Assembly: GCF_013315695.1 (NCBI RefSeq)
Contig: NZ_CP054353.1
Strand: one strand, 5' to 3'
Length of the DNA stretch: 64,000 bases
Source of the DNA: Escherichia coli
GTDB taxonomy: Bacteria > Pseudomonadota > Gammaproteobacteria > Enterobacterales > Enterobacteriaceae
A program made the translations under genes and the position numbers. Within the stretch, counting starts at the first letter, position 1. The number at the start of each line of letters is the position of its first letter. Below, one piece after another: positions 8,258 to 11,433 of this stretch. The notes beneath the pieces are model-generated. The model did no database searches, had not been told where the DNA came from, and saw only the letters and a list, made by a program, of their open reading frames with translations.

Positions 8258-8274
8258 TTTTGTGGAGAAAGTTG

Positions 8275-8646
8275 ATGCGTGATATTCAAATGGTTCTTGA
8301 ACGTTGGGGGGCATGGGTGGCAAATAATCACGAGGATGTGGAATGGTCATCTGTTGCTGCAGGTTTTAAGGGATTAATTCCTTCGAAAGTAAAATCCCGC
8401 CCGCAATGTAGCGATGACGATGGCCTGATCATTAGCTCTGCGATGACAGTTCTTAAGAAAAAGGAACCGTATCAATACGAATTACTGGAAATGTATTATG
8501 TGTATGGGGTTACATTACGGGTGTTGGGGGTAAAACTGGGGATATCACTTAATCAGGTTGTTATCAGACTGCAGAAAGCTGAAGGGTTTATTGACGGTTG
8601 TCTGGCAATGTTGGGGGTATCTTTAGAAATTGATTGTTACATATAG
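8275..8646 (+). CDS. Late-gene antiterminator Q (QuuD-like)
   Basis: N-terminus MRDIQMVLERWGAWVANNHEDVEWSS matches the QuuD/DLP12-type Q family; sits directly upstream of the late region; GGAG RBS before ATG 8275. Confidence 0.75.
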   Translation: MRDIQMVLERWGAWVANNHEDVEWSSVAAGFKGLIPSKVKSRPQCSDDDGLIISSAMTVLKKKEPYQYELLEMYYVYGVTLRVLGVKLGISLNQVVIRLQKAEGFIDGCLAMLGVSLEIDCYI

Positions 8647-8721
8647 TAATAAATTCAATCAAAGTAAATAATCATATTTTATTATAACCTCCTGATGATA
8701 CCTGTTCATTGGGAGGTTATT

Positions 8722-9339
8722 ATGGATAAAAATGTAGAGCATGTATTAGTTGATGCAATTGAAAATAAGCAATCTTTAACAGTCGTTTACTTAGGAGGGA
8801 GCCAGCCCGGAACATTAAGGAATATTTCTCCGATTAGTATAAATGGGGATAAATTGCGGGCAAGATGCCATAGTTCTGGAGCAGTAAAGGTTTTCAATCT
8901 TGGGAAAATACAGTTACCCAGTGACTCCTGCGCGGTATCTATGCACTATGGAGATTTAGAAGTTAAAGCTTATGAGACGATGCAGAGCGTAAATGACAAC
9001 TTTCATGCCCTTTATCCTGAAGGACGATGGGGTGTTGATTTTAATGAGCATCGCTTTGCTTTATTTGATTTTTTTAAAAACGGGAAACGAAAAAAAACGG
9101 CATTTATGGCAATTGAGTTCAGGGAAAGAGATGAAGAGAAAATAATAACAGGTGTAACAATTGATATTGGTATATCTGGAACAGTGATTTCTGAGAAGTC
9201 CCGAATCCCAAAAAGACGACCATGGGTAGTGGTTGGTCCCGAACACGGAGAATACAGTACTTATTCAACTTTGGACAAGGCTGCTACAGCGTTTTTTGAG
9301 AGGCTTTCGTTGATAGCATCCGGCCTGGAAGATAATTGA
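8722..9339 (+). CDS. Hypothetical moron protein (205 aa), unknown function, AT-rich
   Basis: Strong RBS GGGAGG 5 nt before ATG 8722; no recognisable motif, no signal peptide; followed by a terminator; lies between Q and the tRNA block. Confidence 0.6.
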   Translation: MDKNVEHVLVDAIENKQSLTVVYLGGSQPGTLRNISPISINGDKLRARCHSSGAVKVFNLGKIQLPSDSCAVSMHYGDLEVKAYETMQSVNDNFHALYPEGRWGVDFNEHRFALFDFFKNGKRKKTAFMAIEFRERDEEKIITGVTIDIGISGTVISEKSRIPKRRPWVVVGPEHGEYSTYSTLDKAATAFFERLSLIASGLEDN

Positions 9340-9468
9340 TTTTATGTTTGGTATTCAGAGTTCGCCGTGCTTAAGAAAGTCAAGATTCTAAAAATACTGA
9401 ATGAGCTACTTGTGTTATAACAAAAATGCTATTAGTGTGTTAAGAGTGGTTACTTCGCCACACAACTT

Positions 9469-9493
9469 AAACCCGCCACTGAGCGGGTTTTTT
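9469..9493 (+). terminator. Rho-independent terminator downstream of the moron gene
   Basis: AAACCCGC-CACTGA-GCGGGTTT hairpin followed by a T-run. Confidence 0.6.
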
Positions 9494-9617
9494 GTACCTG
9501 TAAACTTGGTGCAGTACAGTAAACACGCTGGTGGTCGTGAATACTGGCTTTTTATCTTGCTGGCTTTTTAGACAAGAGTTATTGGTATGTCACGTTAACC
9601 GGAAAGGGTAAAAAGAC

Positions 9618-9815
9618 ATGCTGAAACAGCAGGATATGACAGAAACCGCCAGAGTTGTGTTTGATGAATTAAGCGTTACCGAACCGGCGACAGTCGGGGA
9701 GATTGCGCAGAATACTTACCTTTCACGCGAACGCTGCCAGTTAATACTGACCCAGCTTGTTATGGCGGGTCTGGCAGACTATCAGTGCGGTTGTTACAGA
9801 CGCCTTCAGTCCTGA
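9618..9815 (+). CDS. Small hypothetical protein (65 aa), possible winged-helix regulator
   Basis: ORF with AAAGGGTAAAAAG region before the ATG; helix-rich sequence GEIAQNTYLSRERCQLILTQLVMAGLA; no confident family. Confidence 0.35.
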   Translation: MLKQQDMTETARVVFDELSVTEPATVGEIAQNTYLSRERCQLILTQLVMAGLADYQCGCYRRLQS

Positions 9816-9949
9816 AGGCTTTTTATTTGTGGTGAATGGGCGGCTGGTGGGGGGGCGACACCTGTCAGTCCTTTGCTTATGTGTTGATGATAATTTACCT
9901 TTTGGGGCTATAATTGAGCTAACCAATTGCTAATGAAAGTAAAATTATA

Positions 9950-10663
9950 ATGGCTGTTGTCTGTTCAGTTATCATGGTTTGCTCCCCAATTAATATTTTT
10001 CTTGAAAAGGATACGTTGTCACTTAAGCCAGGCTCAGTTGTTCTGGCCACCAAATGCATCAGGGAGCTTTTCCTTATGCATTATGGCAAAGTTAAAATTG
10101 TCGATATAAGCGAATCCGTCGTAAGTCAATATCTGGAAAGTCAGCATAAGCTGACGAGGACTCGTCTGACTGACATTCCGCTTTACCTGTTGCTGGAACC
10201 CAACAATCCTGCGTTGGCTGCGGCTTTAATTACCAGCCAGGGATTTTCCGGAGAGGCCACGGATATGTTTCTTATGATGGCCTGCCTGTCTCTGTTTGAA
10301 ACAGATGAACGGATGTCATTGTTTTTAAGTGGATGTTTATCCAGCATAAGTGCCAAAGTCAGGGCGATAATTCAGACAGATATATCAGCAAGCTGGACGC
10401 TTGGTGCGATTGCTCTACAGTTGCATATGAGTGAGAGTTTGTTAAAGACAAAACTGAAAAATGAAGGGGGCATGTTCAGTCGCTTGTTGCTGGAAGAGCG
10501 GATGCGTGTTGCTGTAAATATGTTATGTTCCCGGCATGGATATGGACAGGCTATAGCAGAAAAATGCGGTTATTCAAGCAGGTCCTACTTTATTTCTGTA
10601 TTTCACCGCTATTATGGCTTCCCGCCAGACAGATATGTATCCAGGCAAGGGCTTGATTATTGA
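9950..10663 (+). CDS. AraC-family transcriptional regulator (prophage-encoded; start uncertain)
   Basis: C-terminal AraC-type HTH (WTLGAIALQLHMSESLLKTKLKNEGGMFSRLLLEERMRVAVNML...GYSSRSYFISVFHRYYGFPPDRY). Confidence 0.7.
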   Translation: MAVVCSVIMVCSPINIFLEKDTLSLKPGSVVLATKCIRELFLMHYGKVKIVDISESVVSQYLESQHKLTRTRLTDIPLYLLLEPNNPALAAALITSQGFSGEATDMFLMMACLSLFETDERMSLFLSGCLSSISAKVRAIIQTDISASWTLGAIALQLHMSESLLKTKLKNEGGMFSRLLLEERMRVAVNMLCSRHGYGQAIAEKCGYSSRSYFISVFHRYYGFPPDRYVSRQGLDY

Positions 10664-10691
10664 TTTTCATCTGATTATTATTTTTTGGCTC

Positions 10692-10767
10692 GGCCCTTTA
10701 GCTCAGTGGTGAGAGCGAGCGATTCATAATCGCCAGGTCGCTGGTTCAAATCCAGCAAGGGCCACCA
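10692..10767 (+). tRNA. ileZ: tRNA-Ile2 (anticodon CAU, ileX/ileZ-like)
   Basis: 76 nt cloverleaf GGCCCTT...AAGGGCC-A-CCA; anticodon loop TTCATAA; close to the E. coli ileX sequence. Confidence 0.8.
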
Positions 10768-10774
10768 TCACATA

Positions 10775-10851
10775 CCGCCATTAGCTCATCAGGATAGAGC
10801 GCCAGCCTTCGAAGCTGGTTGCGCGGGGTTCGAGTCCTCGATGGCGGTCCA
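10775..10851 (+). tRNA. argN: tRNA-Arg (anticodon UCG)
   Basis: 77 nt; acceptor CCGCCAT/ATGGCGG; anticodon stem-loop CCAGC-CTTCGAA-GCTGG; T-loop GGTTCGAGTCC; 3' CCA. Confidence 0.8.
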
Positions 10852-10864
10852 TTATCTGTACCCT

Positions 10865-10941
10865 GCGTTATTAGCTCAGCCGGACAGAGCAATTGCCTTC
10901 TAAGCAATCGGTCACTGGTTCGAATCCAGTACAACGCGCCA
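10865..10941 (+). tRNA. argO: tRNA-Arg (anticodon UCU)
   Basis: 77 nt; anticodon loop CCTTCTAAG; T-loop GGTTCGAATCC; 3' GCCA; one acceptor-stem mismatch. Confidence 0.8.
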
Positions 10942-10952
10942 GACTTATTTTT

Positions 10953-10980
10953 CCCGGCTCGCTTTTGCGGGCTTTTTTTT
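10953..10980 (+). terminator. Terminator-like hairpin plus T8 after the tRNA cluster
   Basis: GCTCGC-TTTT-GCGGGC followed by TTTTTTTT. Confidence 0.45.
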
Positions 10981-11433
10981 AAATGTCTCACAATTCAGAC
11001 GGTTGACAGTTGTCTGTTTTGCGGGGAGTTTGTTAAAAGAAACTGGCATGGTGAATCCCCCTGTGCGGAGGGGCAATCAGCAACTGGTGTTTTGTCACCG
11101 ACCCTTATCCTTTCTGTGCGGGTTCAGGTGCTGATACTGAACTCACCGGGAGGCACCCGGCATCATGTGCATGATGATACAGATACGCGGCTTTAGCCCC
11201 TCTCCGGAGGGGCTTTCTTGTGGGCAAAAAAAAGCCCGAGTGGGTTCGGGCAACAGCATGAGATATACATTTTTATAATCGAATGGATTTTAACCAGAAT
11301 TCATAAGGCTGCGCAACTGCGCGGTCTTTTTCGAATTGCGGGCTGTCGTCTCTCTTCTGCCATTGTCCTGTAACTTCCGGACTTCAGCCCGCTCCTTATT
11401 TTACTCACAATATTATCCCGGCCGGGAGGATTC

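What the first reader, a model, noticed from the sequence alone, without database searches (positions are those of the whole stretch)
9540..10663. Regulatory moron pair: small winged-helix-like ORF plus prophage AraC-family regulator upstream of the tRNA block
Between the moron terminator and the tRNAs lie a 65-aa ORF (9618..9815) and an AraC-family regulator (9950..10663). Prophage AraC-like regulators in EHEC-type lambdoid phages (PatE, PsrA/PsrB class) re-wire host acid-resistance and secretion regulons. The targets of this one cannot be read from sequence.
Basis: partly seen in the sequence, partly recalled or inferred. Interest (0 to 1): 0.5.

Follow-up and report, generated by a model that had tools for sequence, protein, structure and literature searches.

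The report
Known acid-resistance regulator PsrB, prophage-borne
The larger gene is an intact copy of PsrB, a prophage regulator already shown in EHEC to switch on acid-resistance genes, and the small gene beside it is not its partner but a conserved phage winged-helix protein that normally sits in front of a DNA methylase.

Summary
Both ORFs exist exactly as described and both are real genes. The 237-aa AraC-family protein (9950-10663) is 234/237 identical to the only AraC-type gene of EDL933 O-island 57. Published Z2104 (psrB) primers hit it perfectly and give the published 158-bp amplicon. So it is an allele of PsrB, a characterised activator of hdeA/gadE, not an unknown regulator. It is only 37% identical to PatE and 35% to YdeO. 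It occurs full length in 725 of 5426 complete E. coli genomes.

The 65-aa ORF (9618-9815) is under strong purifying selection and is predicted with confidence to be a minimal winged helix. It forms a family of small stand-alone proteins across Enterobacterales.

The "pair" reading fails. In 2006 genomes and in phages of several genera the same small ORF is followed by an M.EcoGII-type adenine methylase, not by psrB. A ~790-bp psrB cassette with its own promoter-like site replaced that methylase. An intrinsic terminator separates the two genes. The "moron terminator" upstream is a conserved late-region terminator, probably tR'.

The finding is ordinary and largely already known. The small protein's function remains open.

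The parts
8275..8646 (+). Antiterminator Q, PF06530 family (123 aa by the RefSeq start; the longest ORF starts at 8260)
   Evidence: Pfam Phage_antitermQ E=1.7e-47, full length. RefSeq annotation of the identical locus L001.
8722..9339 (+). Variable cargo gene in 'slot A' between Q and the late terminator (205 aa; function unknown, weak WYL-like signal)
   Evidence: phrog_8498 E=3.4e-126, aligning from residue 10 of the 214-aa ORF. WYL is only marginal (Pfam E=0.07, PADLOC E=0.0012). Other phages carry different genes or nothing at this position.
9411..9468 (+). Element specific to this Q type: GTTAAGAGTGGTTACTTCGCCACA preceded by TTGTGT-17-TAGTGT. Inferred late promoter PR' and its initial transcribed region.
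   Evidence: Conserved immediately upstream of the terminator in all five PF06530-type Q phages examined, whether or not cargo separates it from Q. Absent from phages with other Q types. Promoter function is an inference.
9469..9495 (+).
   Evidence: Hairpin plus U-run; -20.1 kcal/mol for 9440-9500, z=-3.35. Present after three different Q types with different stem sequences; duplicated around the cargo in phiSTEC1575-Stx2k.
9496..9617 (+). Highly conserved leader of the small ORF, including the SD GGAAAGGG and a predicted hairpin covering the start codon
   Evidence: Alignments. The leader is more conserved than the coding sequence. The hairpin is predicted in all 10 sequences but without covariation.
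9618..9815 (+). 65-aa stand-alone winged-helix protein (phrog_331), a conserved first gene after the late terminator
9802..9829 (+). Intrinsic terminator overlapping the stop codon of the small ORF
   Evidence: GCCTTCAGTCCTGAAGGC followed by TTTTTATTTG; -10.5 kcal/mol, z=-2.9. Conserved in both psrB-type and methylase-type loci.
9830..9886 (+). Weakened remnant of the long hairpin that precedes the methylase in methylase-type phages. It is the last stretch homologous to those phages.
   Evidence: Window -18 kcal/mol, z=-0.39, against L017 -35.4 kcal/mol, z=-4.0. 19-pair consensus hairpin in 10 methylase-type loci. Homology ends at 9886.
9887..9914 (+). Sigma-70 promoter-like site of the psrB cassette (ATGATA-16-TATAAT), lying exactly at the left junction of the cassette
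   Evidence: 10 of 12 consensus matches. Conserved in all four psrB alleles aligned. This is a consensus match only.
9950..10663 (+). psrB allele: a 237-aa AraC/XylS-family activator of the YdeO/AppY/PatE type
   Evidence: 234/237 identical to EDL933 OI-57 gene WP_000301797.1. Published Z2104 primers match at 10210-10229 and 10348-10367. Domain evidence.
9887..10675 (+). The psrB cassette as a whole (~790 bp, GC 42%), occupying the slot that holds a ~1.2-kb methylase cassette in most relatives
   Evidence: Left and right junction alignments. GC content. EDL933 carries both versions in two tandem prophages. The right edge is approximate (10670-10690).
10692..10941 (+). tRNA block: tRNA(CAT), annotated as Ile in many records, plus tRNA-Arg(TCG) and tRNA-Arg(TCT). 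No terminator lies between psrB and the first tRNA.
10956..10983 (+). Intrinsic terminator after the tRNA block, the first terminator downstream of psrB
   Evidence: -11.5 kcal/mol, z=-3.0.

Best explanation
The window carries a lambdoid prophage. Its late-control region reads Q (PF06530 type), a cargo gene, a probable PR'/tR', a small winged-helix gene, a terminator, psrB, three tRNAs, then nanS-p and the lysis genes.

The AraC-family gene is an allele of PsrB (Z2104 of EHEC EDL933). It has an N-terminal YdeO/AppY-type domain and a C-terminal double helix-turn-helix. By near-identity it should bind the hdeA and gadE promoter regions and activate the glutamate-dependent acid-resistance island, which is present in practically every E. 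coli. In LEE-positive strains the resulting GadE/YhiF indirectly repress type III secretion.

psrB arrived as a ~790-bp low-GC cassette with its own promoter-like site. The cassette replaced the M.EcoGII-type adenine methylase that normally occupies this slot. In a lysogen psrB is shielded from upstream transcription by two intrinsic terminators and would be read from its own promoter, probably continuing into the tRNAs. After induction, Q-modified polymerase would read through everything.

The 65-aa gene is a separate, older component. It is a conserved stand-alone winged-helix protein found at the head of late operons of many enterobacterial lambdoid phages, with or without psrB. Its function is unknown.

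Shown here: gene integrity, identity to PsrB, cassette junctions, terminators, conservation and fold. Inferred: the targets of this allele, promoter use, the PR'/tR' assignment, and any role of the small protein.
For: Identity to PsrB.
- The protein is 234/237 identical to the gene at NZ_CP008957 1905274-1905987.
- That gene is the only match to this protein (tblastn, E<=1) across the whole of OI-57, 1.84-1.948 Mb.
- The reviews place psrB = z2104 in OI-57.
- The published Z2104 primer pair matches the window perfectly and gives the published 158-bp amplicon.

Relationships: 37% to PatE, 35% to YdeO, 29% to AppY. The closest solved structures are the GadX DNA-binding domain and Rns.

Integrity: 725 of 5426 genomes carry it, all full length. 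dN/dS between alleles is 0.2-0.47.

Targets: the hdeA-hdeD-gadE region is present at >=95% identity in 5410 of 5426 genomes. PsrB binding to hdeA -132..-45 and to the gadE promoter is reported in PMC10877973.

Cassette.
- Homology to methylase-type loci ends at 9886, with the promoter-like site at 9887-9914, and resumes about 20 nt before the tRNA.
- GC is 42% against 52% for the window.
- The small ORF plus methylase arrangement is in 2006 genomes, the small ORF plus psrB arrangement in 724.
- Both versions occur in EDL933 OI-57.
- The methylase is PF01555 and is the gene adjacent to the small ORF in phage 1720a-02. PMC5778455 names that phage as carrying a close M.EcoGII relative.

Terminators.

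Small ORF: dN/dS 0.03-0.2; pLDDT 90.4 with winged-helix topology; Foldseek matches to MarR/IclR/MotA-type winged helices; 509 protein clusters, with the 120 listed all 61-117 aa and none fused to another domain.
Against: - No experiment exists for this allele or in this ExPEC-like host background.
- The promoter is only a consensus match, and such matches are no more frequent in this region than in shuffled sequence (7 found against 6.6 expected).
- Three residues differ from EDL933 PsrB (A103V, H196Y, I202V).
- From memory of Yang et al. 2015: PsrA, about 90% identical, did not enhance acid survival. Modest divergence in this family can therefore matter.
- The primary PsrB papers could not be read here. 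The target information comes from reviews.
- The PR'/tR' assignment rests on comparative anatomy only.
- The link from the slot methylase to M.EcoGII rests on a statement in a paper about phage 1720a-02, not on a direct sequence comparison with M.EcoGII.
Confidence: 0.85

Rival explanations
1. The small winged-helix protein and the AraC regulator form a functional two-gene regulatory module. They would be co-transcribed or co-acting.
For: The two genes are adjacent, on the same strand and at a fixed spacing (~135 nt) in all 724 genomes that carry psrB. The small ORF stays intact and under purifying selection in psrB-type loci.
Against: The same small ORF, leader and terminator occur with a DNA methylase in 2006 genomes and in phages of at least four genera. 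They also occur after three different Q types. An intrinsic terminator overlaps the small ORF's stop codon. The homology breakpoint at 9886/9887 puts the small ORF outside the psrB cassette. Sakai Sp10 has neither gene in the equivalent position.
Confidence: 0.06
2. This allele controls a different regulon in its LEE-negative, ExPEC-like host from the one controlled by EHEC PsrB. The GAD/hdeA inference would then be wrong or incomplete.
For: Three substitutions relative to EDL933 PsrB. Identical copies of this locus are found in urinary and extra-intestinal isolates, where type III secretion control is irrelevant. AraC-family prophage regulators such as AppY are pleiotropic (PMC10057817).
Against: The substitutions lie outside the segments I assign as the two recognition helices (161-173 and 210-222, by inspection of the alignments). 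The published targets are core genes, present in 5410 of 5426 genomes.
Confidence: 0.1
3. The 65-aa ORF is not a functional protein. It would be a leader or regulatory RNA segment of the late transcript whose reading frame is incidental.
For: The 5' leader is more conserved than the coding sequence. A predicted hairpin sequesters the start codon. Pfam hits are sub-threshold (best TrmB E=0.0031). There is no PDB sequence match.
Against: The frame is intact in 12 of 12 loci down to 48% identity. dN/dS is 0.03-0.2, with saturated synonymous change in distant pairs. 19 columns are invariant, including CQLILTQLV.AG. The AlphaFold2 model is confident (pLDDT 90.4) with winged-helix topology. A Shine-Dalgarno sequence lies 9 nt upstream of the ATG.
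Confidence: 0.04
4. The AraC gene is a silent or decaying remnant with no present function.
For: It is AT-rich horizontally acquired DNA of the kind usually silenced by H-NS. It has a weak Shine-Dalgarno sequence and is rich in rare codons.
Against: It is full length in 725 of 725 genomes. dN/dS is below 0.5. Both HTH motifs are intact. The 98.7% identical EDL933 allele has published phenotypes.
Confidence: 0.04

Closest known systems
PsrB (Z2104, EHEC O157:H7 EDL933 OI-57), prophage-encoded AraC-like regulator of acid resistance and, indirectly, of type III secretion
   Same: 98.7% amino-acid identity over the full 237 residues. The locus layout is the same: Q, 65-aa ORF, AraC gene, tRNAs, then nanS-p and the lysis genes. 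Published Z2104 primers match perfectly.
   Different: Three substitutions (A103V, H196Y, I202V). The Q type upstream differs (PF06530 here, DUF1133 type in EDL933). There is an extra cargo gene between Q and the terminator, three tRNAs instead of two, and no TerB/DUF3927 genes downstream. The host background is ExPEC-like rather than EHEC.
PsrA (reported about 90% identical to PsrB)
   Same: Same family. Alleles 90.7-91.6% identical to the window protein sit in the same slot in other prophages (phiSTEC1575-Stx2k; loci L019-L022).
   Different: I could not locate psrA itself. The published location (z1789, OI-50/CP-933N) contains no AraC homologue in the resequenced EDL933 or in Sakai Sp6. Which of the ~91% alleles is PsrA remains open.
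PatE (Z0321, CP-933H) and the K-12 paralogues YdeO and AppY
   Same: Same two-domain architecture, the shared N-terminal M..VCSVI motif, and end-to-end alignment. All act on the GAD/hdeA acid-resistance regulon according to the literature.
   Different: Only 37% (PatE), 35% (YdeO) and 29% (AppY) identity. PatE and AppY sit near the tail-fibre/att end of their prophages, not between Q and the lysis genes. The NCBIfam YdeO score is 108.5, against a cut-off of 348.
SfV orf47 / phiP27 L23 / mEp460 gp52 (phrog_331), the small ORF upstream of the late-region DNA methylase
   Same: The 65-aa ORF belongs to this family (92-97% identical to SfV and phiP27, 51% to mEp460). It has the same leader, the same terminator and the same position after Q.
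   Different: In those phages the next gene is a 350-aa PF01555 methylase of the M.EcoGII type. Here it is psrB.
Morons in the sense of Hendrix and colleagues (autonomous insert with its own promoter and terminator between conserved phage genes)
   Same: The psrB cassette is a discrete low-GC insert with sharp junctions and a promoter-like site, lying between conserved late-region elements.
   Different: It is a replacement of another cargo gene rather than a pure insertion. It has no terminator of its own before the tRNA genes.

Membership tests
AraC/XylS family | C-terminal ~100-aa domain with two helix-turn-helix motifs | tested here: met
   Pfam HTH_18 at 155-230 (E=1.1e-9); HTH_AraC at 141-173 and 202-224. 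PDB sequence matches to the GadX DNA-binding domain (E=7e-19) and to Rns.
PsrA/PsrB prophage secretion/acid regulators | Orthology to EDL933 Z2104 (psrB) | tested here: met
   234/237 identical to the only AraC-type gene of OI-57. Z2104 primers from PMC4763077 match at 10210-10229 and 10348-10367, giving a 158-bp amplicon as published.
PsrA/PsrB prophage secretion/acid regulators | Carried on lambdoid prophages | tested here: met
   Located between Q and the lysis genes in every locus examined. A PerC/Pch-family gene lies downstream of the lysis genes in the EHEC-type copies.
PsrA/PsrB prophage secretion/acid regulators | Direct binding to, and activation of, the hdeA and gadE promoters | not testable with these tools
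   Known only from the literature for the EDL933 allele. The target DNA is present in 5410 of 5426 genomes.
PatE orthologue | High identity to Z0321 and a location in a CP-933H-like prophage arm | tested here: not met
   36.7% identity and a different prophage position.
YdeO (NCBIfam NF007407 equivalog) | Score above the curated cut-off of 348 bits | tested here: not met
   108.5 bits, E=4e-31. The alignment is full length, but the protein is a paralogue.
Winged helix-turn-helix fold (small ORF) | Three helices followed by a beta-hairpin wing | tested here: met
   AlphaFold2 pLDDT 90.4, pTM 0.78; helices at 9-16, 26-33 and 37-49; strands at 53-56 and 59-62. Foldseek TM 0.82 to OhrR and 0.80 to the T4 MotA domain, with E-values of only 1e-3 to 1e-2.
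TrmB family (Pfam PF01978), as annotated in RefSeq for the small ORF | Significant match to the family profile | tested here: inconclusive
   i-Evalue 0.0031, 17.8 bits. Similar weak hits to DprA_WH, MarR_2 and HTH_65. No NCBIfam match.
Restriction-modification controller (C) proteins (considered for the small ORF because of its usual methylase neighbour) | Xre/HTH_3-type five-helix fold (from established knowledge of C proteins) | tested here: not met
   The Pfam scan and the Foldseek top 50 return only winged-helix families. There is no HTH_3 or C-protein match.
Moron | Own promoter | tested here: inconclusive
   ATGATA-16-TATAAT at 9887-9914, conserved in 4 alleles. It is a consensus match only, and the scan is not enriched over shuffled sequence.
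Moron | Own terminator | tested here: not met
   No terminator-like site between 10663 and the tRNA at 10692. The first one lies at 10956, after the tRNAs.
Moron | Composition distinct from the flanking phage DNA; discrete junctions between conserved genes | tested here: met
   GC 42% against 52% for the window. Junctions at 9886/9887 and about 10670-10690.

The most novel reading that the evidence does not exclude
The conserved 65-aa winged-helix protein, with its unusually conserved leader and the 19-pair hairpin that follows it, may be a dedicated control or partner element for the toxic, non-specific M.EcoGII-type adenine methylase that normally sits next to it. For example it could time methylase expression or sense adenine methylation. 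Here it would survive as an orphan next to psrB, which would imply a second, methylase-independent role in late gene expression.
Probability: 0.15. Interest if true: 0.55.

Novelty: already known. Interest (0 to 1): 0.25.

Why it matters
The practical result is a correct label. The gene annotated only as 'helix-turn-helix domain-containing protein' in hundreds of RefSeq genomes is psrB. It is not confined to EHEC: it is carried by 13% of complete E. coli genomes, including extra-intestinal isolates. In those strains it would be expected to raise acid tolerance through gadE and hdeAB.

The comparison also shows that the stretch between Q and the prophage tRNAs is a two-slot exchange site, where a promiscuous adenine methylase and an acid-resistance regulator are alternative cargoes.

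Finally, it isolates a very widespread but uncharacterised small winged-helix gene as the constant element of that site. None of this changes current understanding of the systems involved.

Tried and rejected
1. Phage record OR845495 (45% match to the C-terminal half) was followed as a possible psrA. It is an adiY-adiC fragment.
2. psrA was sought at its published location (z1789, OI-50/CP-933N). There is no AraC homologue in the resequenced EDL933 CP-933N, in the neighbouring OI-51, or in Sakai Sp6. Two further Sakai regions (the end of Sp9, and Sp10) also lack it; Sp10 has Q followed directly by the tRNAs.
3. The primary papers (Bender 2012, Yang 2015, Tree 2011, Imamovic 2010) are not held. 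NC_002655, which carries the Z-number locus tags, is not in the collection.
4. Cluster names gave no 'PsrB' label. A bare text search for Z2104 was mostly noise until it was combined with O157.
5. PADLOC gave no defence-system assignment for the cargo gene, the small ORF, psrB or the Rce1-like cargo.
6. The small ORF has no PDB sequence match.
7. The start-codon hairpin in the small ORF's leader shows no covariation, so it remains a prediction.
8. I considered whether the small ORF could be an N-terminally longer protein, because the phrog_331 profile is 111 positions long and 94-106-aa database entries exist. Those entries are upstream-extended gene calls through the leader. In the window a stop codon closes that frame.
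Full report
**Observation.** ORF 9618..9815 (+) encodes 65 aa and ORF 9950..10663 (+) encodes 237 aa. Three tRNA genes follow at 10692-10941. The sequence is 100% identical over 9340-10700 to prophages in several complete E. coli chromosomes, such as FDAARGOS_144 from urine, and 99.6% identical to S88. The RefSeq annotation of the identical locus shows a lambdoid prophage. Its order is antiterminator Q, a hypothetical gene, the 65-aa gene, a 'helix-turn-helix domain-containing protein', the tRNAs, a SASA-family esterase (nanS-p type), then holin and lysozyme.

**The AraC-family gene is psrB.**
- Pfam finds HTH_18 and two HTH_AraC motifs in residues 141-230.
- NCBIfam aligns the whole protein to YdeO (residues 1-229 on profile positions 1-230, E=4e-31), but at 108.5 bits it is far below the equivalog cut-off of 348. 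PHROGs gives phrog_1450, full length.
- Reviews place psrB at z2104 in O-island 57 of EDL933, psrA at z1789 in OI-50 and patE at z0321 in OI-8.
- I fetched the whole OI-57 region of the resequenced EDL933 chromosome. It holds exactly one match to the window protein, at 1905274-1905987, and that gene is 234/237 identical. The local order there is the same: Q, 65-aa ORF, AraC gene, tRNAs, then later nanS-p and the lysis genes.
- Independent confirmation comes from a published primer pair. The pair listed for Z2104 in PMC4763077 matches the window without mismatch at 10210-10229 (+) and 10348-10367 (-). The resulting amplicon is 158 bp, as published. The forward primer also matches the EDL933 gene.
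- PatE (L002 24102-24845) is only 36.7% identical, YdeO 35.1%, AppY 29.4% and YbcM 26.2%.
- The three differences from EDL933 PsrB are A103V, H196Y and I202V. They lie outside the segments I take to be the recognition helices (161-173 and 210-222), which are identical in the two proteins.
- The gene occurs in 725 of 5426 complete E. coli genomes, always full length, with a median of two copies per genome that has it. Alleles differ by up to about 10%, with dN/dS of 0.2-0.47.
- It is therefore not a degraded fragment, and its likely targets can be inferred: the hdeA and gadE promoters reported for PsrB. That target region is present at >=95% identity in 5410 of 5426 genomes.

**The small ORF is a real, conserved winged-helix protein.**
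- It matches phrog_331 (E=6e-37). tblastn finds it in 55 phage records down to 48% identity, in Stx2 phages, phiP27, SfV, mEp460, the cdtI phage and phages of Klebsiella, Citrobacter and Hafnia.
- In 12 loci the reading frame is intact. dN/dS is 0.03-0.2 within the closer clade and at most 0.5 in saturated distant comparisons. Nineteen columns are invariant, including C40 and I43-V48.
- AlphaFold2 on this small alignment gives pLDDT 90.4 and pTM 0.78, with three helices and a beta-hairpin wing.
- The best Foldseek matches are winged-helix domains: OhrR/MarR at TM 0.82, T4 MotA at 0.80, IclR N-terminal domains, and the winged-helix domains of O-methyltransferases. E-values are modest (1e-3 to 1e-2), as expected for so small a domain.
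- Pfam hits are sub-threshold (TrmB E=0.0031), and no PDB sequence matches.
- A profile search finds 509 protein clusters across Escherichia, Shigella, Salmonella, Klebsiella, Citrobacter, Buttiauxella, Cedecea and Lelliottia. All 120 listed are 61-117 aa, and none is fused to another domain. The longer entries are gene calls extended upstream through the leader.

**The two genes are not a pair.**
- In every locus I retrieved, the small ORF is followed at a fixed distance by one of two genes. One is psrB, seen only in E. coli. The other is a ~350-aa DNA methylase, seen in 10 loci including SfV, phiP27, Stx2a and Stx2c phages, mEp460, phage 1720a-02, Citrobacter phiNP, a Klebsiella phage and Hafnia phage yong2.
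- The methylase is PF01555. Phage 1720a-02, where it sits next to the small ORF, is named in PMC5778455 as carrying a close relative of the non-specific adenine methylase M.EcoGII.
- Across complete E. coli genomes, the small ORF plus methylase arrangement occurs in 2006 genomes and the small ORF plus psrB arrangement in 724.
- EDL933 OI-57 carries both versions in two tandem prophages. Sakai Sp10 has neither gene; there Q is followed directly by the tRNAs.
- Junction alignments show that homology between the two versions runs through the small ORF, its terminator and a further ~55 nt, and ends at window 9886. It resumes about 20 nt before the first tRNA.
- The intervening ~790 bp (GC 42% against 52% for the window) begins exactly with a promoter-like ATGATA-16-TATAAT at 9887-9914. 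That site is conserved in the four psrB alleles aligned.
- psrB is therefore a self-contained cassette that replaced the methylase cassette. All psrB-type flanks share the same C-to-T changes in the remnant of the hairpin that precedes the methylase. This suggests a single origin for the replacement.

**Transcriptional anatomy.**
- An intrinsic terminator overlaps the small ORF's stop codon (9802-9829; -10.5 kcal/mol, z=-2.9).
It cannot belong to the cargo gene at 8722-9339, for three reasons. The same terminator follows Q almost directly in phages that lack any cargo (Stx2_14040, 1720a-02, SfV). It occurs after three different Q types with different stem sequences. It is duplicated on both sides of the cargo in phiSTEC1575-Stx2k.
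- In all five phages with the PF06530-type Q, the terminator is preceded by the same element, GTTAAGAGTGGTTACTTCGCCACA, and by a weak TTGnGn-17-TAnnnT motif. Phages with other Q types have different sequence there.
- I infer that this is the late promoter PR' with its Q-specific initial transcribed region, and that 9469-9495 is tR'. This is an inference from anatomy, held at moderate confidence.
- Under that reading, in a lysogen psrB is insulated from upstream transcription by two terminators and depends on its own promoter. No terminator lies between psrB and the tRNAs, so such transcripts would probably run to 10956-10983. After induction, Q-modified polymerase would read through the whole stretch.

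**What it most likely does.** By near-identity to PsrB, the 237-aa protein should activate hdeAB and gadE and raise acid tolerance. The type III secretion effect described in EHEC, which acts through GadE and YhiF, is relevant only in LEE-positive hosts. The isolates with identical copies of this locus include urinary and extra-intestinal strains. The small protein's role is unknown. It persists intact under purifying selection in psrB-type loci that have lost the methylase, which argues against a function tied solely to the methylase.

**Novelty.** The regulator is already known and characterised. The small ORF is a known hypothetical family. The modest new points are the explicit identification of the generically annotated gene as psrB in non-EHEC genomes, the cassette-replacement relationship with the M.EcoGII-type methylase, and the recognition of the small winged-helix gene as the constant element of this exchange site.

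**Limits.**
- The primary PsrA/PsrB/PatE papers were not available. Target information comes from reviews, and one statement (that PsrA does not enhance acid survival) comes from memory.
- psrA itself was not located. The published position (CP-933N) contains no AraC homologue in the resequenced EDL933 or in Sakai Sp6. This probably reflects misassembly of the original EDL933 sequence, but I did not resolve it.

Noticed in passing
window 11017-11225 (+) and 11229-11281 (-): Rfam finds STnc100 (131.7 bits) and, on the opposite strand, an AsxR-like anti-sRNA scoring exactly at its gathering threshold (63 bits). AgvB scores 43 bits, below its cut-off. These lie where stx genes sit in Stx phages; that position is empty here.
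   Followed up: no
window 9830-9886; L017 17893-17960 and nine other methylase-type loci: A 19-pair hairpin between the small ORF and the methylase is conserved in 10 loci from four or five genera (consensus -28.6 kcal/mol). The changes are mostly wobble-compatible, with one compensatory pair, which points to an RNA-level element. In psrB-type loci its 3' arm carries shared C-to-T changes and the fold weakens (-18 kcal/mol, z=-0.4).
   Followed up: partly
window 9555-9632: The leader of the small ORF is more conserved than its coding sequence, even in phages whose protein is only about 50% identical. A predicted hairpin pairs 9583-9592 with 9615-9624 and covers the start codon. No covariation supports it.
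   Followed up: partly
window 8647-9468 ('slot A'); L005, L006, L019, L030: A second variable cargo site lies between Q and the late terminator. It holds a 205-aa protein with a marginal WYL signal here, an Rce1-like protease in O103 and other prophages, a GIY-YIG nuclease in phiP27, and a putative lipoprotein flanked by a duplicated terminator in phiSTEC1575-Stx2k. It is empty in SfV and in Stx2_14040.
   Followed up: partly
window 9950-10663 and 10692-10941: psrB is rich in the rare codons read by the adjacent phage tRNAs: AUA is 5 of 15 Ile codons, and AGA plus AGG are 6 of 13 Arg codons. The nanS-p gene downstream uses them rarely.
   Followed up: no
EDL933 NZ_CP008957 1629367-1675087 (L003) and Sakai Sp6 (L015, L016): The published location of psrA (z1789, OI-50/CP-933N) contains no AraC-family homologue in the resequenced EDL933 or in Sakai. 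O157 genomes nevertheless carry two psrB-like copies, and the second copy was not located.
   Followed up: partly
L011, L026 compared with L007, L006 (small ORF and methylase): The small ORF exists in two sequence types that are about 50% identical to each other. They share the same leader and the same flanking methylase, which is 82-86% identical. The small gene has therefore diverged or been exchanged much more than its neighbours.
   Followed up: no
L035 25565-25705 (Sakai Sp10): A third state of the site: a DUF1133-type Q is followed by the tRNAs within about 140 nt, with no small ORF, methylase or psrB.
   Followed up: no
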